IMG/VR virus record: IMGVR_UViG_3300027740_000003
Coordinates: 128,001-192,000 of that record
Strand: one strand, 5' to 3'
From: a virus
Taxonomy: Duplodnaviria > Caudoviricetes
Length of the DNA: 64,000 bases
Shown here piece after piece: positions 14,052 through 49,683 of the stretch. The notes under the pieces were generated by a model. It worked only from the letters and a program-made list of their open reading frames with translations. It had not been told where the DNA came from and ran no database searches. The position numbers and the translations under genes are program-made. Every line of letters begins with the position of its first letter. The stretch's first letter is position 1.

Positions 14052-14151
14052 AATTTATTCCCCAACAATATAATATCCTATTAAGCACATATCATAAATT
14101 TTACAGAATTATCAATTGTTGCTATTGTCTTTCCTCCGACAATTATATTAA

Positions 14152-14463
14152 TTATTGGGGCCAAATGAAACTTAGCTGCTTTGGACATGTGTCTCTTTCC
14201 TCTTCTTTATCTACGACATCAACAATATTTTCTATCTCTCCAGAATATACTATAAATAATTCTACATCAGTTATTCCAGAAAGTTTATATGTTTGTCCTT
14301 CTAAAATCTTACAATCTTCACCTTCATATAAAACTATATTTCTACCACTTATTTCTATTAATAACGCTCCTTTAAAAACAATTATAATTTCATCACTTGT
14401 TTTGTTGTATCTGGGACCGATTATATCAAATTCTTTTATTTTCAATATATGCGAGTTAATCAC
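14152..14463 (-). CDS. hypothetical protein
   Basis: 103-aa ORF, overlaps upstream stop; ends QLSFIWPQ. Confidence 0.65.
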   Translation of the reverse strand: MINSHILKIKEFDIIGPRYNKTSDEIIIVFKGALLIEISGRNIVLYEGEDCKILEGQTYKLSGITDVELFIVYSGEIENIVDVVDKEEERDTCPKQLSFIWPQ

Positions 14464-15148: not shown

Positions 15149-16486
15149 TTACCATTGAATATCTATATCTCCAATGCTTCTATTTATATCATTTTTCAAT
15201 TTTGCTAAAACCTCTTCAGGAACAGCTTTCACATCAGCGGGATATATTATCTTGGCATTTTCGCCAGAATCAAAATCTTTTGAAAATTCTACTATTACTA
15301 CTATTTTATTGTTTCCGTTAAATCCAACATTTTCTACAAGTCTAGCATTAACGCTATTCCAATCTGAATTTGGATTTGTATTCCTGGCTAATATTTTTAA
15401 AGCTCTAGTAATTAAATCTTGATATTTTTTAAATTCAGCTTCTGATTCTGAAGAATTTGGTTTTGTGGGTTTTTGTAAATTTTTATTATTTTCTGAATAG
15501 GCCTCCCAAGCCCTATCATAATCATAATCTTCAACATAAGAAATTTTTCTTTTTATTGATGCTTTTGCTGTATTTTTTAATAGTTCCGTTAGTCTATTTT
15601 CTAAATCCGGATGAAGAGTATTACTTATTTTTGTTTTTATTTTAGATAAAGCGGTTTGTACAAAATACATTACGTCGGCAGAATTTTCCACAAAAAGGCT
15701 TCCGAAATAAGATAATGCTGCTTGGAATCCACTGCCGCCCGCAATACGCATTTCTAAATTAATTTCATCTTCATCTAGTATTAACGAATTGCGTTGGGCC
15801 TGAATTATTATGACAATAGGGTTTTCTCTTTTTTTATTTTTTGCATTGTTTGTTGAAATATAAGCTGTCATTAAATTTGGAGTTAGGTAAATTCCTTCTA
15901 AAGAGTTTCTAGAAGACATATTAAAATTTGATTCTTCGTCTATTTGCCAAGTTCTTTTTTTCGGATTAGCTAATAGTCCAGACGACATTATACTACTCAA
16001 ATTGCTTTTATGAGTTCCATGATATAAATATATTGGAGGTGTTTTTGCTAGTTTTTCAAACAAACACGCTAATTTCTCTACTTTATCTCTGTTTAATATA
16101 TTAATAGCCTTGGAAACATCTTCGTCTGTTATTCCTGTCTCATCATTAATATGAACTAAATTGTCAGGAAATAATAACAACAGGTCGTCTATTACTACAT
16201 AACTATCTACTTCTTTTCCTTCTAACCATTCTTCAATCTCACTTATCCTATTTCCTGTTATTCCAGTGTTGCCTATTATGTAAGAAGATAATGTTGGCAA
16301 TGATTTCCTAACAAGACCCATATCGAAACGCCAATTAGAGGAAATAACTATCTTGGCACCCGTAGCTGATACAATCTTTTCTATTCTTTTTATTTTCTCA
16401 GGATCTAAATAATTGTGTCCATACTTACCGAGTTCCTTGTAAGTATTTAATACACCATCTAGATCAAGGAAAATAACAGAAACCAT
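15149..16486 (-). CDS. HAD phosphatase (HAD_SAK_2-like) fused to ART-fold-like domain
   Basis: IFLDLDGVLN..IVISSNWR..YVVIDD; then YLYHGTH..NL.SI..SGL. Confidence 0.75.
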   Translation of the reverse strand: MVSVIFLDLDGVLNTYKELGKYGHNYLDPEKIKRIEKIVSATGAKIVISSNWRFDMGLVRKSLPTLSSYIIGNTGITGNRISEIEEWLEGKEVDSYVVIDDLLLLFPDNLVHINDETGITDEDVSKAINILNRDKVEKLACLFEKLAKTPPIYLYHGTHKSNLSSIMSSGLLANPKKRTWQIDEESNFNMSSRNSLEGIYLTPNLMTAYISTNNAKNKKRENPIVIIIQAQRNSLILDEDEINLEMRIAGGSGFQAALSYFGSLFVENSADVMYFVQTALSKIKTKISNTLHPDLENRLTELLKNTAKASIKRKISYVEDYDYDRAWEAYSENNKNLQKPTKPNSSESEAEFKKYQDLITRALKILARNTNPNSDWNSVNARLVENVGFNGNNKIVVIVEFSKDFDSGENAKIIYPADVKAVPEEVLAKLKNDINRSIGDIDIQW

Positions 16487-16503: not shown

Positions 16504-17160
16504 TTATCTCTTGCGCATTCTCCCGGCGGTTTTTTTAAATAGCTTTTGGAAAGGAGGCATCTCTTGCATAACCATTGGTTTATTAAAATCAGGGATTAGT
16601 CCTGTAGAAAGATACGCTTGAGTTTCATCAATAAAGAAATCATCAGAATATCCACACTTCTTTAGTTTTTTAGAAATGAAATTTCTTGTTTTTGTTGGCA
16701 ATGCGTTAACCAAAGCCGTTGTTTTGGTTTTATATTTCTCGTCAGTATAAAAGAATCCATGAGCAAGCTCGTGGTTAAATGTTCCAACCAAGTCCGCGTC
16801 TTCACCTGATGTTCCAATTATATAAAAATCGCTTCTATTATCTTCTTTTGAACAAATAAATTCTGCCAGGGAGAGCATAAGTTTATCATATCGATTTGGA
16901 TCTTGTATACCATCTTTGTGGAGGGAAAAGATATATTCGCCAGGAAGGTTGAAACCAGCCCAATCTTTAGTATATGTAAAGACACCTTCTCCCATTTCTC
17001 TTGCATACCAATCCATGTAATTCACTAAAGTTAGATTGGTCTTCCTGAATTTTGGAGACTCATAGAACTCCTGATATCTCAGGAAGTGCATTGTTAGATC
17101 GTAGTGGTGGTCAAAATGTAGATGCCAAATTTGCTTTCTGAGTTGCTTTAAACTAAACAT
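16504..17160 (-). CDS. conserved phage protein with HExxH metallopeptidase-like motif
   Basis: FLRYQEFYESP, WAGFNLP, HELAHG, DETQAY. Confidence 0.7.
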   Translation of the reverse strand: MFSLKQLRKQIWHLHFDHHYDLTMHFLRYQEFYESPKFRKTNLTLVNYMDWYAREMGEGVFTYTKDWAGFNLPGEYIFSLHKDGIQDPNRYDKLMLSLAEFICSKEDNRSDFYIIGTSGEDADLVGTFNHELAHGFFYTDEKYKTKTTALVNALPTKTRNFISKKLKKCGYSDDFFIDETQAYLSTGLIPDFNKPMVMQEMPPFQKLFKKTAGRMRKR

Positions 17161-17275
17161 TCACCCTCCAGCCGTATATATCTATGCTGGATTATAGTCT
17201 GGGCATTGAACTTTAATATAATAATAATAATAATAGAATTGTGGGGAATATGTGGTGTAAACTTTTGTTTACATA

Positions 17276-17458
17276 TTATTCATTTGCTGCTAATTTTATA
17301 TCTTCTTCGGAAGCTATTTTTATTATGAACGTTCCTGACAATTCCATTATTCTACTAGCACCAGCTCTAAGAATGGTTGCTAATTTATAATCGTATGAAT
17401 ATTCGTCTGCTAAGTCTGATATTTTTTCTGCTGCTTCTAGATAAAAGTTATTTCCCAT
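17276..17458 (-). CDS. small hypothetical protein (paralog of 17490-17669)
   Basis: YLEAAEKISDLADEY vs YREAADKVWELAKQY. Confidence 0.6.
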   Translation of the reverse strand: MGNNFYLEAAEKISDLADEYSYDYKLATILRAGASRIMELSGTFIIKIASEEDIKLAANE

Positions 17459-17489
17459 TATTACCACCCACAATAACTATATCAAAATA

Positions 17490-17669
17490 TTACTTATCAT
17501 CCTCTGTTTGTTTAGCTCTTGCCAAAGCATGGATTTGAGAGACAATATTTTTTAATTCCCCGGCAAGCTCAAACAAACCCTTGTCTTCGTATTGTTTGGC
17601 TAATTCCCAAACTTTATCGGCCGCTTCCCTATATGACTGGCCTTCTGTTTTTAATTCATTGTCTCCCAT
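17490..17669 (-). CDS. small hypothetical protein
   Basis: start moved to MGDNELK; track start is an artefact of the upstream FLVCA tag read in another frame. Confidence 0.6.
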   Translation of the reverse strand: MGDNELKTEGQSYREAADKVWELAKQYEDKGLFELAGELKNIVSQIHALARAKQTEDDK

Positions 17670-17683
17670 GCCTTTATAACAAA

Positions 17684-17806
17684 TTATGCACAAACAAGAA
17701 ACGTTTCATTTTCCATTATAGAATCTATAATAGAGGAAACAAGCAAATCTTCTTGTATTTGAATGTCTCTTAAGAAATTTAGATAACATTGTTGAGTTAT
17801 GCACAT
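17684..17806 (-). CDS. 40-aa mini-ORF E ending ETFLVCA (capsid-like fragment)
   Basis: hand-translated MCITQQCYLNFLRDIQIQEDLLVSSIIDSIMENETFLVCA*. Confidence 0.7.
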   Translation of the reverse strand: MCITQQCYLNFLRDIQIQEDLLVSSIIDSIMENETFLVCA

Positions 17807-17943
17807 ACTAAAAATAGCTCCTCATACCTATCAATTATGTTAAACCGTCGCATTTTAACATCTGATAGAGTTATAGGACACGTAGACCAATCAACAACCT
17901 TAAATGTAGGAACAACAACTCTATTTGCTTTTAAATAATTCAT
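17797..17943 (-). CDS. 48-aa mini-ORF D ending ELFLVCA (capsid-like fragment)
   Basis: hand-translated MNYLKANRVVVPTFKVVDWSTCPITLSDVKMRRFNIIDRYEELFLVCA*; ATGA overlap. Confidence 0.8.
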   Translation of the reverse strand: MNYLKANRVVVPTFKVVDWSTCPITLSDVKMRRFNIIDRYEELFLVCA

Positions 17944-18071
17944 GCACACACCAAAAATGTAGGACAATTAAGAGTTGTTCTTAATGGTTGAAGCATTGCT
18001 TTTGCTAATCTTTTTCTTCCTTCCAGAGTGTAAAGTAATTGGCTAATTAAAGGGTGGTTATTTATGCACAT
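17940..18071 (-). CDS. 43-aa mini-ORF C ending PTFLVCA (capsid-like fragment)
   Basis: hand-translated MCINNHPLISQLLYTLEGRKRLAKAMLQPLRTTLNCPTFLVCA*. Confidence 0.75.
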   Translation of the reverse strand: MCINNHPLISQLLYTLEGRKRLAKAMLQPLRTTLNCPTFLVCA

Positions 18072-18163
18072 ACAAGAAATGTCCTTTCTTTAAATAAATG
18101 AGTTATTTGCAGCGGTATGTATGGTAGTATTGGTATGCTTGGCGGGGGTGGCGGGGGTGGCAT
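18062..18163 (-). CDS. 33-aa poly-Pro mini-ORF B ending RTFLVCA
   Basis: hand-translated MPPPPPPPSIPILPYIPLQITHLFKERTFLVCA*; could start further upstream. Confidence 0.65.
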   Translation of the reverse strand: MPPPPPPPSIPILPYIPLQITHLFKERTFLVCA

Positions 18164-18194
18164 TGGTATTTTTAGTGTGCATAATATTAAACAA

Positions 18195-18329
18195 TCAAGC
18201 ACAGACGATGAAATTTGTTGACTCATATCCAAATACTTTTAAAATTACTTCTTGCCTAATCAGTCCTTGATTAACATACTTTGATATGTCAATATTATAA
18301 GCTTTTGCTAACAGGTTCCAATCTGGCAT
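18195..18329 (-). CDS. 44-aa mini-ORF A ending NFIVCA
   Basis: hand-translated MPDWNLLAKAYNIDISKYVNQGLIRQEVILKVFGYESTNFIVCA*; starts 2 nt after upstream stop. Confidence 0.7.
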   Translation of the reverse strand: MPDWNLLAKAYNIDISKYVNQGLIRQEVILKVFGYESTNFIVCA

Positions 18330-18331
18330 AA

Positions 18332-18583
18332 TTATCCCAGATCCTTTCTGTCCAACATAAACTTTTCCATATATTCCCTAATAAGTTCTTCTCTGTCTTT
18401 TGGAAGCTTTCCTCCCCAAACATTGCATAATTCTATTCCAAACATTTCTTCCACACTATCATAGTGTAATAATACCCAAGTCTTAGTAAATTCTTGGCAG
18501 ATCGCCAACCTTAATTCCATCATTAATTCCTTTGAAGAGTCAATTACTAATACTTCATCTCTCTCACCAAGCGGTAGAATCAT
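18332..18583 (-). CDS. hypothetical protein
   Basis: 83-aa ORF. Confidence 0.65.
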   Translation of the reverse strand: MILPLGERDEVLVIDSSKELMMELRLAICQEFTKTWVLLHYDSVEEMFGIELCNVWGGKLPKDREELIREYMEKFMLDRKDLG

Positions 18584-18641
18584 GTGTCCTCATGTGTCTA
18601 TGTAGGTTTACGTTATGCTCTCGGCAGATCTGTGTCCTATT

Positions 18642-18842
18642 TTAGTTTCTCCACAGATCCATTATTCCAGCTTTTTCTACCGACAGTATTCCAGGAACCT
18701 CTAAAAGCAATATGTATTCTTCATTTGATACTTCGGCTGTGAATTTTTCATCACTTGAAGTGATTATATTTATTCCAATTTCCTCCAAAGCATTTTTAAC
18801 ATCTTCAGATTTTCCCTCTTTACAGAATATGTTTATTTTCAC
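18642..18842 (-). CDS. small hypothetical protein (ferredoxin/I9-like pattern)
   Basis: 66-aa ORF, ATGA coupled. Confidence 0.6.
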   Translation of the reverse strand: MKINIFCKEGKSEDVKNALEEIGINIITSSDEKFTAEVSNEEYILLLEVPGILSVEKAGIMDLWRN

Positions 18843-19093
18843 AGCTTGTTCTCCGTTGTTGAACTCAGGCCTTCTATTACTAGAATTCTATTTTCTACCT
18901 CATCGATTAATTTTTTGTCTAAAGAATAATATCTCATTCCTTGGCCTGGAATCATTTTATAAAATCCCGCCATATCTATTCCATTAACCCTAAGTTTTGC
19001 TTTGAACATAGGATAGTCATCGGTTTTAATTTCTATTGAAAAATAGAGTATTAAAACAATAATTAATAGCAAAATTAACCATATATAAATCAT
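18839..19093 (-). CDS. small protein with N-terminal TM helix
   Basis: MIYIWLILLLIIVLILYFSI. Confidence 0.65.
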   Translation of the reverse strand: MIYIWLILLLIIVLILYFSIEIKTDDYPMFKAKLRVNGIDMAGFYKMIPGQGMRYYSLDKKLIDEVENRILVIEGLSSTTENKL

Positions 19094-19275: not shown

Positions 19276-19296
19276 TTTCTCTCCTTAAAAACATCA

Positions 19297-19319
19297 ATGG
19301 CCAGCTTCTGGCTGGCCAT
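19297..19319 (-). terminator. intergenic 9-bp hairpin, possible terminator
   Basis: ATGGCCAGC-TTCTG-GCTGGCCAT perfect inverted repeat. Confidence 0.45.
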
Positions 19320-19343
19320 TTGGAATAATTAGATTAACTTCTT

Positions 19344-20592: not shown

Positions 20593-20687
20593 TTATTTCC
20601 TATCTGGGTGCGTATGGTACAAAATGATTCCCAACAACACTCCTGCTGTTAACATTATTATTACAAAAAAATGATGTTGGCATTTTG

Positions 20688-20760
20688 TGGCTCTGAGTGT
20701 AGTCGAAACACTGATCGGGTTTTTAGAGAACCCTGCTTTAGACCGCTAAGCTACAGAGCC
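20688..20760 (-). tRNA. tRNA with CUA anticodon (amber suppressor)
   Basis: GGCTCTG/CAGAGCC-A acceptor, GCTT/AAGC D-arm, GGGTT-CTCTAAA-AACCC anticodon arm, AGTGT-TTCGACT-ACACT T-arm; all stems perfect. Confidence 0.9.
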
Positions 20761-26025: not shown

Positions 26026-26161
26026 GAATCCCTCTAAGCACATACTAGAAAATACTCTTTTAGAGGATAATCAAAATAAAATATATTTCCAATGGAAATT
26101 GGAAACATTGGTTGAATTATAAGATCCGATATTTTAAACATAGTATTTAAAGTTATTTGTT

Positions 26162-26413
26162 TCATTCGATTATGTCTTTTATCACTAATTCATCACACGA
26201 TAGCTCGTTTCCTACCAATGTCCACGTCCACTTATCTCTTTTTGATATAAAAAGATTATATTCTAAATCATTTGTGTCGCAAATTATACCACATTTTTTA
26301 CATGTATATATTGTTGACGGACATTCTATATTTTCTTCCAAACTATTATAACAGAAAACAAAACTATGATCTGAATCATTTGGCGGTTCAAACAATGGTG
26401 ATTCAGCATTCAT
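26162..26413 (-). CDS. H-CxxC-C zinc-finger protein with IKDIIE tag
   Basis: DHSF..YTCKKCG..LSCDELVIKDIIE. Confidence 0.85.
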   Translation of the reverse strand: MNAESPLFEPPNDSDHSFVFCYNSLEENIECPSTIYTCKKCGIICDTNDLEYNLFISKRDKWTWTLVGNELSCDELVIKDIIE

Positions 26414-27720: not shown

Positions 27721-27889
27721 GATTTAATGCAAGAATATTATGCGCAAACAATAAAATATTCCTCCTCCAAAATATGTCTTCTAGCAATTCCTTGATAAGG
27801 AAGAGATGGTTTAACTTTAGTCTTTGGTTTTTTACCAGAAATATCTATGTCTCTAGGATAATCTATTATTAGAAATGGTTTTTTCACAG

Positions 27890-29778: not shown

Positions 29779-29796
29779 AATGTTCCTTAGGCACAC

Positions 29797-29825
29797 ACTA
29801 TAAACACTTCCGGCCCCTTTGTCAA
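29797..29825 (-). promoter_or_regulatory. sigma70-like promoter TTGACA-17-TATAGT
   Basis: near-consensus; reads into the tRNA cluster. Confidence 0.75.
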
Positions 29826-29932
29826 CCTCCGAGGTCCGTTATATCCACATTTTATACATTTATATTGTTTTATATATTTAATGAATTCAGAACAATGTTG
29901 GCAGAACATACTTATATGCAATATTAATCATC

Positions 29933-33237: not shown

Positions 33238-33630
33238 TTATGCACACAATATAAACCTTATAGGTTCTTTAACAATTTCCCAACTAAATATACATTTTAA
33301 ACTTTTATAGTCGTATTCTGTTTTATATGGGACAACAACCGCACCAATAAGAGAACCATATTGGTTTACATATTTACATTTTAAATTATTCATGGCATTA
33401 GTGATTTTGTTAAATTTTCTTTCTCTAATTTCACCTGGTGTCAAAGAAACTGTTTCGATTATTCTTTCCATATTATTCCTAAGAGGCCTGGGAGAGATTT
33501 GAACTCTCGACCCGGAACTTATCTTTGGATCTTCCAGACTTGAACTGGAAAGAGACGTGTATCTAGATCCCACAGGTTCCCGCTCTTCCTCTGAGCTACC
33601 AGGCCTTGTATTAAAAAAAATATCACTCAA
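33238..33630 (-). CDS. hypothetical protein ending RFILCA (FLVCA-type tag)
   Basis: 130-aa ORF; C-terminus TTT ATA TTG TGT GCA TAA. Confidence 0.7.
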   Translation of the reverse strand: MSDIFFNTRPGSSEEEREPVGSRYTSLSSSSLEDPKISSGSRVQISPRPLRNNMERIIETVSLTPGEIRERKFNKITNAMNNLKCKYVNQYGSLIGAVVVPYKTEYDYKSLKCIFSWEIVKEPIRFILCA

Positions 33631-48140: not shown

Positions 48141-48658
48141 TCTATTATGTCTTTTATTATTACGTTATTATATATTGTTTCTAGATTTTCTTTGCTCAAT
48201 TTTGACAAATCGACAAATACAATAACTTTTGGATCAAATTTACTAGCAATAATAGCTTCCATAACAATTTCTTCGGTTGCCCATCCTTTTTCATAATACA
48301 TATCCAAATTAAATGGATGAAGTTTAATTGCCTCCAATTTCATTTCTTCACTAGGACCAACCGGATCTTTAATCCAATATATTGCATTATAGGCCCTTTT
48401 AATTGCTTCTAATTGAAGCCATTTTGGAGGATTCATTACACTATGAATAGAACAAGGCTCTTGTTTAACTGCTTCTAACATAACCTCGTTTGAAGGATTT
48501 TGTATCCACTGTAGGGAATTGCCCCAAACTTTAACAGCTTCCAATTTCATTTCCTCAGATGGATTTTTTATTTTTGAGAAATAAAGGCCAGGATTATTTT
48601 TAATTAGCTCCAATTTTGCATTGTACAACATTTCGTCTATTTTATCTGCAATGTCCAT
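48137..48658 (-). CDS. DUF4116-like repeat protein with IKDIIE tag
   Basis: IKNPSEEMKLEA repeats; ends LETIYNNVIIKDIIE. Confidence 0.85.
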   Translation of the reverse strand: MDIADKIDEMLYNAKLELIKNNPGLYFSKIKNPSEEMKLEAVKVWGNSLQWIQNPSNEVMLEAVKQEPCSIHSVMNPPKWLQLEAIKRAYNAIYWIKDPVGPSEEMKLEAIKLHPFNLDMYYEKGWATEEIVMEAIIASKFDPKVIVFVDLSKLSKENLETIYNNVIIKDIIE

Positions 48659-49683
48659 TATGCCACCAAAACCTTGAATTGTTTAACAATTGTTTCTTCA
48701 ACAGAGTTAAATAAATCATCAGACAGTCTGGTTAATTCTCTTCTCTTCTCCAGATCTCTTTTTAGTAGTTTTGGAAATGCAGCTGCTCCCCATCTGGCCC
48801 CAACCAATGCCGCATACATTGCCCCTATAGTATCTGTGTCCCCTCCCTGTTGTATTAGTTCACATAAATTAGGAAAAGCTTGCCGGCGATTCTTTGTGTT
48901 CAAAAACACAGCGGTCGCCGTTATCCATGATTCCGTTGCTTTGCCATTGGTTCCAATTTGCTCTGCAATAATTTCTATTGTTGGCAACTTAACCGCTATT
49001 TTCAATTTATCAGCAAACCTAGTTTCCCCAAATAAACTTTCTTCAATTCTAGCAAGCTCTTCAATTAATATTTTTTTATTACGAATGCCGTTTATGGACA
49101 TTGCTATCAAAACAGATTGAAGCACTCCGGCCGTAATACCTATTTCATGATGTGTAATCTTTCCAACAGATACAATAGAGTTAATTGTGTTATAAAAAGT
49201 TTTATGATCCTTCATAGAACTTAAATAACACCCCAAGGGAGCTGCCTTCATTGCAACACCATTTCCGTAGCCCAAACTAGTGTCAGCGGCCCGGGTCCAA
49301 GGAACACCCTCGCTAAGCCGCTTTACAGCCTCTCTGGTGGACTTTCCCCATCCCCTAAGCTCCTCCTCCTGGTACACCTTCAAACTGAATCTAGCAATGT
49401 CCTGAGGGCATATATAACCAAGGTTTGTTATGGACAGCAATATTGGCTTCATTAGTTGTGTATCATCTGTCCATTGTCCTGAGCCACGAACATTCTGATG
49501 AATACTTTGTGGACGATTAACCTTGCCAGGATCAACATATTGATATATTACAGGATATTGTTTAATAATATCTTTTTTAGACATACATTCAAAAGGGGCT
49601 CCAAGAGCATCACCAATTGCTGTTCCTAAAATAGCGCCACGATATCGAGATTTTACTGTGATTGGATTTCTAGTAGAGGTCAT
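48658..49683 (-). CDS. ADP-ribosylglycohydrolase (ARH/DraG family)
   Basis: GAILGTAIGDALG, WTDDTQL, GNG.AM..AP, GGDTDTIGAM.AAL.GA. Confidence 0.92.
   Translation of the reverse strand: MTSTRNPITVKSRYRGAILGTAIGDALGAPFECMSKKDIIKQYPVIYQYVDPGKVNRPQSIHQNVRGSGQWTDDTQLMKPILLSITNLGYICPQDIARFSLKVYQEEELRGWGKSTREAVKRLSEGVPWTRAADTSLGYGNGVAMKAAPLGCYLSSMKDHKTFYNTINSIVSVGKITHHEIGITAGVLQSVLIAMSINGIRNKKILIEELARIEESLFGETRFADKLKIAVKLPTIEIIAEQIGTNGKATESWITATAVFLNTKNRRQAFPNLCELIQQGGDTDTIGAMYAALVGARWGAAAFPKLLKRDLEKRRELTRLSDDLFNSVEETIVKQFKVLVA

What the first reader, a model, noticed from the sequence alone, without database searches (positions are those of the whole stretch)
17684..18329. Hidden array of five tandem mini-ORFs all ending F[LI]VCA-stop (second tag family)
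Seen: the 650-bp gap in the ORF track contains five consecutive minus-strand ORFs of 44, 33, 43, 48 and 40 aa, ending NFIVCA*, TFLVCA*, TFLVCA*, LFLVCA*, TFLVCA*. Codons differ synonymously (TTC ATC GTC TGT GCT; TTT CTT GTA TGT GCA; TTT TTG GTG TGT GCA; TTT TTA GTA TGT GCA; TTT CTT GTT TGT GCA). Successive starts overlap the previous tag (ATGTGCATAA, GCATGA). A distant ORF (33238-33630) ends RFILCA*. Established: the ssrA degron ends in aromatic-x-hydrophobic-A-A (YALAA), read by ClpXP. Inference: FLVCA is an ssrA-like degron, or a Cys-based modification/attachment site, making these short-lived peptides or protease decoys. It is mutually exclusive with the IKDIIE tag.
Basis: partly seen in the sequence, partly recalled or inferred. 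Interest (0 to 1): 0.88.

Follow-up and report, generated by a model that had tools for sequence, protein, structure and literature searches.

The report
Cysteine-tailed mini-proteins of a megaphage
An uncultured 435-kb soil phage and its closest relatives encode dozens of tiny, otherwise unrelated proteins that all end in the same hydrophobic-hydrophobic-cysteine-alanine tail, and the tail's spelling changes in step across all of them from one phage lineage to the next, which points to an unknown common reader of that tail.

Summary
The five tandem minus-strand mini-ORFs (44, 33, 43, 48 and 40 aa) end in F[LI]VCA-stop. Genome-wide, 11 ORFs carry F[LIM][VLI]CA-stop, against about 0.15 expected by chance. 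Ten of them lie at window 14-34 kb, all on the coding strand.

They are real genes. ORF1-ORF4 and the 26034 ORF have orthologues in related metagenomic phages, dN/dS of the bodies is 0.16-0.55, and the operon architecture is conserved, with 10-nt or 4-nt start/stop overlaps.

The bodies are unrelated to each other, so only the tail is shared. Tail variation sits at third codon positions, which indicates selection on the peptide.

The key new result is that the tail differs between lineages but is uniform within each: F[LI]VCA here, E[TV]YLLCA, K[KR]RIIC[YA], [MR]I[IV][LI]CA, xY[LI][IV]CA and Y[LIFY]ICG in relatives. I found 50 tails in seven lineages. Only hydrophobic-hydrophobic-Cys-x-COOH is constant.

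I read it as a portable C-terminal recognition tag with a co-evolving reader that has not been identified. A plain ssrA-like degron is weakened, but a Cys-centred function remains open.

The scan has not seen this motif on other DNA; only analogous Cys-tailed arrays with different motifs exist. The mechanism is unproven.

The parts
18195..18329 (-). ORF1, 44 aa, ends NFIVCA-TGA. Its body (NWxLLAxAYNIxI) has orthologues in L006 and L008.
   Evidence: dN/dS 0.16 against L006
18062..18163 (-). ORF2, 33 aa, with poly-Pro from a 9-nt repeat, ends TFLVCA-TAA. Its body (PYIPLQIT) has an orthologue in L019/L020.
   Evidence: in-frame 9-nt indel variant in run X2
17940..18071 (-). ORF3, 43 aa, ends TFLVCA-TGA. 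Its start ATG lies inside ORF2's tail (10-nt overlap). Its body (EGRxxLAKAMxxPLR) has two orthologues in L008.
17797..17943 (-). ORF4, 48 aa, ends LFLVCA-TAA, with an ATGA overlap with ORF3. Orthologues exist in L006 and L008.
   Evidence: dN/dS 0.28
17684..17806 (-). ORF5, 40 aa, ends TFLVCA-TAA. It is the last array member; its start lies inside ORF4's tail (10-nt overlap), and its own tail contains no downstream ATG.
14081..14188 (-). Dispersed member, 35 aa, ends KFMICA-TAA.
26034..26165 (-). Dispersed member, 43 aa, ends YFLVCA-TAG. It starts by an ATGA overlap with the stop of an IKDIIE-tagged gene. Its orthologue in L006 (749-883) ends ETYLLCA.
27738..27887 (-). Dispersed member, about 49 aa (GTG start, uncertain), ends YFIVCA-TAA (Cys codon TGC).
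29787..29909 (-). Dispersed member, 40 aa, with a CxxC...CxxC zinc-ribbon-like body, ends VFIVCA-TAA. It lies between tRNA-Val and tRNA-Met.
33238..33471 (-). Dispersed member ending RFILCA-TAA. The open frame runs to 33630 (130 aa), but the likely product is 77 aa from the internal Met. It lies just upstream of tRNA-Asp.
18332..18583 (-). Conserved 83-aa gene immediately upstream of the array (2-nt gap), 92% identical in L006.
17490..17669 (-). Conserved 59-aa helical gene (MGDNELK...) immediately downstream of the array.
16504..17160 (-). 218-aa protein with an invariant HELxH motif, a putative zinc metallopeptidase-like fold. I used it as the marker to find relatives. It is a candidate tail reader with no support.
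   Evidence: complex job gave no verdict
19296..19320 (-). Terminator-like hairpin upstream of the operon that contains the array. There is none inside the array.

Best explanation
The five mini-ORFs and their dispersed siblings are genuine, translationally coupled small-protein genes of a huge phage. Their unrelated bodies carry one portable C-terminal short linear motif: aromatic or basic residue, hydrophobic, hydrophobic, Cys, Ala/Gly, free carboxylate.

The motif acts as a recognition tag. One common trans-acting factor reads the extreme C-terminus, including the invariant penultimate Cys, and so gives all tagged proteins a shared fate, such as docking to a hub, sorting or timed removal. 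That factor is most likely phage-encoded, because the tag co-varies with phage lineage.

Shown here: the genes are real and conserved. The tail is selected at the peptide level and confined to the C-terminus. The bodies are unrelated. The tail has evolved in concert within each of seven lineages.

Inferred: that a single reader exists, that it is phage-encoded, and what it does.
For: (1) Enrichment and position: 11 of the 16 six-frame occurrences are at a stop, against 0.15 expected.

(2) Peptide-level selection: within this genome the tail codons have 0.00 bits of entropy at position 2, 0.48 at position 1 and 1.16 at position 3. Four Val, six Leu/Ile, three Ala and both Cys codons are used. 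DNA repeats are limited to about 21 nt at 69-90% identity.

(3) Unrelated bodies: phmmer of each body against all genome ORFs found only itself. Bodies range from helical peptides to a zinc ribbon, an alpha/beta domain and, in L018, MORN repeats.

(4) Real genes: orthologues of ORF1-4 and of the 26034 ORF exist in phages whose marker protein is 68-88% identical. Body dN/dS is 0.16-0.55 with saturated dS. The annotated frame is best of six in 9 of 10 ORFs, and against a stop-free off-frame null their scores lie between that null and true genes. ORF4 was independently called as a gene in the protein database.

(5) Concerted tail evolution on orthologous bodies: ORF1 ends NFIVCA, EVYLLCA and KRIICY in three lineages, and ORF4 ends LFLVCA, VYLLCA and LRIICY. 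Cys is the only invariant tail column. There are 50 tails in seven lineages.

(6) The Cys is kept in 22 of 50 tails that have no overlapped downstream ATG, so start-codon overlap alone does not explain it.
Against: No reader has been identified. The only candidate with any rationale, the syntenic HELxH protein, gave no verdict in the complex prediction, and its family extends to phages without the tail.

There are no expression or proteomic data, because no RNA run holds the locus.

In L008 the internal array junctions are nearly identical at the DNA level and contain the next gene's ATG and an SD-like AAGGA. Part of the conservation there is therefore nucleic-acid-level or reflects recent duplication.

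The census of relatives used a pattern that required Cys, so Cys invariance is independently supported only by the body-based alignments. One natural YLISG variant exists in L011.
Confidence: 0.5

Rival explanations
1. The tail is a degron or protease decoy. The nonpolar C-terminus is read like an ssrA tag by a host AAA+ protease (ClpXP/ClpAP, FtsH or Lon), perhaps together with the phage's own ClpP. This would make the peptides short-lived, or let them compete with host substrates.
For: The tail sits at the extreme C-terminus, is nonpolar and usually ends in a small residue (34 of 50 in Ala, 8 in Gly), as in LAA-type tags (established knowledge: ClpX reads L-A-A-COOH, and FtsH and Tsp read nonpolar C-termini). 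The phage encodes a free-standing ClpP (E 6e-54) but no Clp-type AAA_2 unfoldase, so it would depend on a host partner.
Against: The tail drifts between close relatives, including the terminal residue (Y/F in eight L008 members) and a charge flip just upstream, whereas ClpX-type pockets are conserved across bacteria. The strict Cys is not explained by a purely hydrophobic/small readout. There are no stability data.
Confidence: 0.17
2. The invariant penultimate Cys is a site of chemistry rather than docking. It could be covalently modified or attached (acylation, ADP-ribosylation, thioether or RiPP-type maturation), or it could ligate a metal. As a thiol next to a free carboxylate, it could for example plug the zinc of a metallopeptidase such as the neighbouring HELxH protein or host FtsH.
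For: Cys is the only invariant tail residue on orthologous bodies and is kept without the ATG constraint in 22 tails. A putative HExxH peptidase is syntenic with the array in four lineages. ADP-ribosyl-related genes lie nearby: a weak PARP hit inside the HAD_SAK_2 protein and an ADP-ribosylglycohydrolase. The genome has four radical SAM genes.
Against: No maturase is adjacent; the nearest radical SAM gene is about 23 kb away. The bodies are not leader-like, being neither conserved between paralogues nor short cores. The complex job with the HELxH protein and Zn gave no verdict. One natural Cys-to-Ser variant exists.
Confidence: 0.15
3. The tail is a by-product of gene-junction constraints and array dynamics. 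It encodes the ATG (NNA-TGY forces Cys or Trp), the spacer and the stop of a translational-coupling cassette. Unequal crossing-over and gene conversion homogenise it within a genome, and the peptide itself has no function.
For: 28 of 50 tails contain an overlapped ATG in the xxA-TGY position. The 10-nt overlap architecture is conserved in all lineages. The L008 junctions are nearly identical DNA (AAAAGRATWATATGTTATTRR) with an SD-like AAGGA.
Against: Dispersed and last-in-array members with no overlapped downstream gene keep the full tail (ORF1, ORF5, 27738, 29787, 33238; the L008 IICA members). Within this genome the tails differ at synonymous sites and never at second codon positions, which is the opposite of recent conversion. 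No sequence downstream of the stop is conserved.
Confidence: 0.1
4. The tail is a homotypic assembly handle. Its beta-prone hydrophobic residues and Cys bind each other (a beta-zipper or a shared metal site), so that different mini-proteins co-assemble. Concerted evolution would then reflect the need for mutual compatibility.
For: The tail is rich in beta-branched and aromatic residues. All members change together. A low-confidence AF2 model puts the tail in a terminal beta-strand, which is not usable as evidence.
Against: There is no direct evidence, and five residues is very short for a specific homotypic interface.
Confidence: 0.05

Closest known systems
ssrA-type C-terminal degrons (ClpX C-motif 1, ...LAA-COOH) and nonpolar C-terminal tags read by FtsH or Tsp
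   Same: A short nonpolar tag at the extreme C-terminus that works on unrelated bodies and usually ends in a small residue.
   Different: It is genetically encoded rather than added by tmRNA. It has an invariant penultimate Cys. The terminal residue can be Y, F or G. The sequence drifts in concert between closely related phages. No degradation data exist.
C-terminal hub-binding tails of phage T4 proteins (gp43, gp33 and gp55 binding the gp45 clamp) and bacterial beta-clamp motifs (QL[SD]LF, often C-terminal)
   Same: Several unrelated proteins of one phage share a short hydrophobic C-terminal peptide that docks on one hub and co-evolves with it.
   Different: The consensus is different, with no Q/L...F pattern and with Cys invariant. 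The carriers here are 33-130-aa proteins of unknown function rather than replication or transcription factors. No clamp link was tested.
Encapsulin cargo-loading peptides
   Same: A short C-terminal peptide appended to unrelated cargo proteins and read by one shell protein of HK97 (phage capsid) ancestry.
   Different: No GSL-type motif is present, there is no evidence of capsid association, and the genes sit in a tRNA/RNA-repair (probably early) region.
CaaX prenylation boxes with an upstream polybasic stretch (K-Ras type)
   Same: A Cys-containing C-terminal tetrapeptide with aliphatic residues. In L008, L018 and L019 it is preceded by K/R runs.
   Different: The order is reversed (a-a-C-X, not C-a-a-X), so Cys is penultimate. 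No prenyltransferase search was run. In this phage and in L006 the preceding residues are acidic.
Cys-tailed small-protein arrays noted earlier in this scan (W-x-SS-x-x-C tails next to a nucleotidyltransferase-like gene in T4-like phages; unverified AI notes)
   Same: Tandem arrays of small, fast-evolving phage proteins sharing a Cys-containing C-terminal tail.
   Different: The motif is different (there Cys is the last residue and the bodies are paralogous), the phage group is different, and there is a fixed partner enzyme next door. Here the bodies are unrelated and no fixed partner is adjacent.

Membership tests
ssrA-like ClpX degron (C-motif 1) | Located at the extreme C-terminus with a free carboxylate | tested here: met
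   11 of 16 six-frame occurrences are directly at a stop.
ssrA-like ClpX degron (C-motif 1) | Terminal hydrophobic-small-small tripeptide (L-A-A-like), conserved because the ClpX pocket is conserved | tested here: inconclusive
   VCA, LCA and ICA fit loosely, but ICY and ICF (8 L008 tails) and ICG (8 tails in L010/L011) do not obviously fit.
ssrA-like ClpX degron (C-motif 1) | Confers ClpXP-dependent degradation | not testable with these tools
   Needs a degradation assay.
CaaX prenylation box | Cys at the fourth position from the C-terminus (C-a-a-X) | tested here: not met
   Cys is penultimate in all 50 tails.
Bacterial lipoprotein lipobox | N-terminal signal peptide followed by L-x-x-C | tested here: not met
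   The motif is C-terminal, and no N-terminal hydrophobic stretch exists (maximum 12-residue Kyte-Doolittle score 1.82).
RiPP precursor array | Conserved leader (or follower) with variable core, plus an adjacent maturase (radical SAM, YcaO, LanM or similar) | tested here: not met
   Bodies share no similarity. Flanking genes have no maturase domain. The nearest radical SAM gene is about 23 kb away.
Secreted signalling propeptides (arbitrium AimP, Phr, SHP) | N-terminal secretion signal with the mature peptide at the C-terminus | tested here: not met
   No signal-like N-termini, and bodies reach 77-135 aa with folded domains.
Sliding-clamp binding motif (QL[SD]LF or T4 gp45-binding tails) | Consensus Q-L-x-L-F or S-L-D-F-L-F-type sequence | tested here: not met
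   The tail consensus is [FY/KR]-h-h-C-[AG].
Encapsulin-type cargo-loading peptide | C-terminal peptide on unrelated cargos | tested here: met
Encapsulin-type cargo-loading peptide | Binds the interior of an HK97-fold shell; the tagged proteins are found inside particles | not testable with these tools
   Needs virion proteomics or a structure.
Paralogous small-gene family (simple tandem duplicates) | Members alignable over their whole length | tested here: not met
   phmmer of bodies at E<=1 found only self hits. Only the last 5-6 residues are shared.

The most novel reading that the evidence does not exclude
This clade of huge phages may run a protein-addressing code of its own. It would use two orthogonal C-terminal tags: IKDIIE-type on about 110 proteins and h-h-Cys-Ala on about 10 in this genome, with lineage-specific respellings such as RKIIK, MxxALE, YLLCA and IICY. 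These tags would route or couple different sets of small effector proteins to different phage-encoded receptors. The Cys tag would be captured through its thiol, for example into a virion, compartment or protease chamber, in the way encapsulin cargo-loading peptides or T4 capsid-targeting sequences work.
Probability: 0.15. Interest if true: 0.9.

Novelty: new variant of a known kind. Interest (0 to 1): 0.7.

Why it matters
Huge phages carry hundreds of tiny ORFs that are usually dismissed as unannotatable. Here a subset is shown to be real, conserved genes organised by a five-residue C-terminal address that is kept on unrelated bodies and rewritten in step across a whole gene set as lineages diverge. 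That pattern is the signature of a hub-and-tag system.

It could also yield a compact, orthogonal, Cys-containing peptide tag for protein engineering.

The work also gives a practical rule for annotating mini-ORFs below gene-caller cut-offs in such genomes.

Tried and rejected
- **Cultured phages:** blastn (distant mode) of the locus against 50,697 phage records found nothing.
- **IMG/VR:** a two-tail DNA pattern gave four hits, all chance or off-frame repeats. The HAD_SAK_2 neighbour found no relatives. The 218-aa alignment found only relatives at 32-34% identity.
- **Family libraries:** Pfam, PHROGs and NCBIfam gave nothing significant on the mini-ORFs or the small neighbours.
- **Sequence searches:** the ORF4 sequence and profile, and the ORF1 profile, returned only this phage, L006 and L008, plus one spurious repeat protein.
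- **Literature:** full-text searches for IKDIIE/FLVCA/KDIIE and for shared C-terminal motifs in huge phages turned up nothing relevant. The one phage paper containing KDIIE holds it inside a reverse-transcriptase sequence.
- **Stop-codon recoding as an explanation for the short ORFs:** rejected. ORF lengths barely change with TAG or TGA read as sense, and TAG is simply the rare stop.
- **RNA-gene explanation:** no Rfam match in 17000-19000.
- **Readers in the phage genome:** no PDZ_2 and no Clp-type AAA_2.
- **Complex prediction** of the HELxH protein with ORF4 and Zn scored 0.01, which is no verdict and counts neither way.
- **AF2** of the 77-aa tail-bearing protein without an alignment gave pLDDT 47.7, which is unusable.
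- **Fold search** of the 218-aa model against the PDB found no significant match.
- **RNA evidence:** no RNA run holds the locus.

Full report
**Setting.** The window is bases 128,001-192,000 of a single 435,004-bp virus record with 35% GC. The record was assembled from a soil metagenome, and a diverged relative is present in a groundwater study. The window holds 12 tRNA genes, RNA-repair and nucleotide-metabolism genes (HAD_SAK_2, Pnkp-like, ThyX, IMPDH, ADP-ribosylglycohydrolase) and very many small ORFs, almost all on the minus strand. Cultured phages hold nothing similar at the DNA level, and the window's 678-aa helicase finds only distant homologues, under 35% identity, in the phage records.

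**Observation.** The five minus-strand mini-ORFs are exactly as described, in coordinates, lengths, endings and codons. They are packed head to tail. ORF1 starts 2 nt after the stop of a conserved 83-aa gene. ORF3 and ORF5 start at an ATG inside the preceding tail (GT-ATG-TGC-ATA-A, a 10-nt overlap), and ORF4 starts by an ATGA overlap.

The family is larger than reported. Nine ORFs in the window end in F[LI][VIL]CA-stop and a tenth in FMICA-stop, all on the minus strand between 14 and 34 kb. An eleventh, doubtful copy lies 230 kb away; it has no start codon and overlaps another gene's end.

In the whole genome the pentapeptide occurs 16 times in six frames. Eleven of those are directly followed by a stop, against 0.15 expected in block shuffles. 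The feature is real and far beyond chance.

**Peptide or DNA?** Within this genome the 15 tail nucleotides have zero entropy at second codon positions, 0.48 bits at first positions (Leu/Ile/Val/Met exchanges) and 1.16 bits at third positions. Both Cys codons and three Ala codons are used. Nothing downstream of the stop is conserved. The only DNA repeats in the array are the ~21-nt tails at 69-90% identity. There is no Rfam match and no terminator inside the array. This is the signature of purifying selection on a peptide, not of a nucleic-acid element.

**Are the mini-ORFs genes?** Four lines of evidence say yes.
- The annotated frame is the best of six in 9 of 10 ORFs. Against a fairer null of stop-free off-frame ORFs, their scores lie between that null and true genes.
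- The decisive evidence is comparative. The adjacent 218-aa protein has 379 homologues, and contigs encoding them were fetched.
- In phages whose marker is 88% (L006/L016), 69% (L008) and 68% (L019/L020) identical, the same operon is present: the 83-aa gene, a mini-ORF array, two small helical genes, the 218-aa gene and HAD_SAK_2. Clear orthologues exist for ORF1 (39-50% identity), ORF3, ORF4 and ORF2, and for the dispersed 26034 ORF.
- Between this phage and L006, synonymous sites are saturated, yet body dN/dS is 0.16 (ORF1), 0.28 (ORF4) and 0.55 (26034). Neighbouring genes give 0.04-0.12.

The mini-ORFs are therefore fast-evolving but constrained protein genes. In addition, a variant in a second run of the source sample differs by a 9-nt, in-frame indel in ORF2's poly-Pro repeat.

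**Only the tail is shared.** phmmer of each body, with the tail removed, against every ORF of the genome returned only self hits at E<=1. Bodies include helical peptides, a poly-Pro peptide, a CxxC...CxxC zinc ribbon and a 77-aa alpha/beta domain. In L018 they include MORN-repeat proteins of 100-135 aa. None has a signal-peptide-like N-terminus. The tail is thus a portable module, not the last conserved piece of a paralogous family.

**The key result is concerted respelling.** Each lineage has its own tail, uniform within the lineage:

| Lineage (marker identity) | Tail |
|---|---|
| This phage | x[TY]F[LI]VCA |
| L006/L016 (88%) | E[TV]YLLCA |
| L008 (69%) | K[KR]RIICY for internal array members, KIICA for the last and the dispersed member |
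| L019/L020 (68%) | [MR]I[IV][LI]CA |
| L018 (61%) | xY[LIF][IV]CA |
| L011 (60%) | Y[LIFY]ICG |
| L010 (55%) | YHIC[AG], YLICG |

In all there are 50 tails in seven lineages.

- On orthologous bodies the tail changes while the body is kept. ORF1 ends NFIVCA, EVYLLCA and KRIICY in three lineages, and ORF4 ends LFLVCA, VYLLCA and LRIICY.
- Cys is the only invariant tail column in these body-based alignments.
- The residues just before the core are acidic in this phage and L006 but basic in the other lineages.
- Within L006 the six tails again use different synonymous codons, so the uniformity is not recent gene conversion.
- More distant relatives (L009, L040-L042, L023, L012, L013, L027) show no Cys tails in the DNA sampled. 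The tag therefore belongs to a sub-clade.

**The start-codon caveat.** In arrays the Cys codon often forms the ATG of the next gene (xxA-TGY). That would force Cys or Trp, and in L008 the junction is almost identical DNA with an SD-like AAGGA. This contributes, but it does not explain the pattern. Twenty-two of the 50 tails keep Cys with no overlapped ATG. These include ORF1, ORF5, all the dispersed members lacking a downstream overlapping gene, and L008's last and dispersed members, which switch to ATT-TGC-GCA (IICA).

**Mechanism.** The best-supported reading is a C-terminal short linear motif read by one shared factor that co-evolves with the phage.
- The restriction to the very C-terminus implies that the free carboxylate is part of the epitope.
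- The invariant Cys implies either specific contacts or chemistry at the thiol.
The phage has no PDZ_2 domain and no Clp-type AAA_2 unfoldase. It does have a free-standing ClpP, four AAA-family hits and four radical SAM genes, none nearby.
- The syntenic 218-aa protein has an invariant HELxH motif and a fold weakly resembling putative zinc metallopeptidases, which made it the one candidate worth a complex prediction. The job gave no verdict. Its family also extends to phages without the tail, so I give it little weight.

The 'Cys-based site' alternative is strengthened by the Cys invariance. Both are untested.

**Comparison with known systems.** The tag fails the defining features of CaaX boxes (Cys position), lipoboxes, RiPP precursor arrays, secreted signalling propeptides and clamp-binding motifs. 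It matches ssrA-type degrons and encapsulin cargo-loading peptides only in general form (see the membership table).

Full-text searches found no description of these tails. The scan's index holds no look-alike DNA. It holds only analogous phage arrays with other Cys-containing tails, which are unverified notes that I did not test.

**Verdict.** This is a real, conserved and apparently undescribed family of tail-tagged mini-proteins in a clade of uncultured huge phages. Its concerted tag evolution argues strongly for a common reader. Function and reader remain to be found.

Noticed in passing
window 20687-20760 (-): A tRNA with anticodon CTA, which would read TAG (ARAGORN labels it tRNA-Pyl). 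The genome nevertheless shows no sign of TAG recoding: ORF lengths barely change, and TAG is the rare stop (32 of 351 long ORFs). Nine of the 50 Cys-tail genes across lineages end in TAG, so suppression would extend and mask their tails.
   Followed up: partly
whole genome; window 713-60574: About 110 ORFs end in an IKDIIE-type tail, 39 of them in the window. The Lys-Asp codons are mostly AAG-GAT/GAC, forming an SD-like AAGGA, and 69 of the 110 stops are TGA, often as an ATGA overlap with the next gene. That tag therefore also carries translational-coupling signals.
   Followed up: partly
L009, L041, L042 (relatives at 51-56% marker identity): The sister tag is respelled by lineage as well: V[RK][KN]IIK-stop on CxxC proteins in L009, [DE]E[VI]xMxxALE-stop on 8 ORFs in L041, and xxIMKKALE-stop on 6 ORFs in L042. 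Lineage-specific C-terminal tags seem to be a clade-wide habit.
   Followed up: partly
window 16504-17160 (-): A 218-aa protein with an invariant HELxH motif has no Pfam, PHROG or NCBIfam family but 379 homologues, many on 200-440-kb contigs. The AF2 model has pLDDT 80.7, and its best fold matches are uncharacterised proteins and weak putative zinc peptidases. It looks like an unnamed metallopeptidase-like family of huge phages.
   Followed up: partly
genome 410693-411244 (L005 1471-2088, -): A free-standing phage ClpP (205 aa, E 6e-54) sits next to a DksA/TraR-like C4 zinc-finger gene and three CxxC small genes. The genome has no Clp-type unfoldase.
   Followed up: no
window 18120-18160 (-), ORF2: The poly-Pro run is encoded by a 9-nt tandem repeat (CCACCCCCG x2). 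A contig from a second run of the source sample differs there by 9 gapped bases, an in-frame length polymorphism.
   Followed up: partly
window 18167-18195 (+): A degenerate inverted copy of the tail DNA (TATTTTTAGTGTGCATAAT) lies on the opposite strand inside the ORF1/ORF2 junction. It may be a remnant of an inverted duplication.
   Followed up: no
genome 375521-375682 (-): A FFLVCA-stop frame has no start codon, overlaps the 3' end of another gene in the +1 frame, and has a T8 run inside the tail. It is either a decayed copy or a frameshift-accessed tail.
   Followed up: partly
window 15149-16486 (-): The HAD_SAK_2 ('Swiss Army Knife' RNA-repair) protein also has a weak PARP-catalytic-domain hit (E 0.005). 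An ADP-ribosylglycohydrolase lies at 48658-49683.
   Followed up: no
L008 14673-15875; L006 19750-20517: Relatives carry mobile genes in the syntenic region that this phage lacks there: an IS605 OrfB/TnpB (Cas12f-like) gene in L008 and a GIY-YIG/NUMOD3 homing endonuclease in L006.
   Followed up: no
L018 2649-3669: Three tandem MORN-repeat proteins (102-135 aa) each end in KK[VA]YLICA-stop, showing that the Cys tail is also placed on larger repeat proteins.
   Followed up: no
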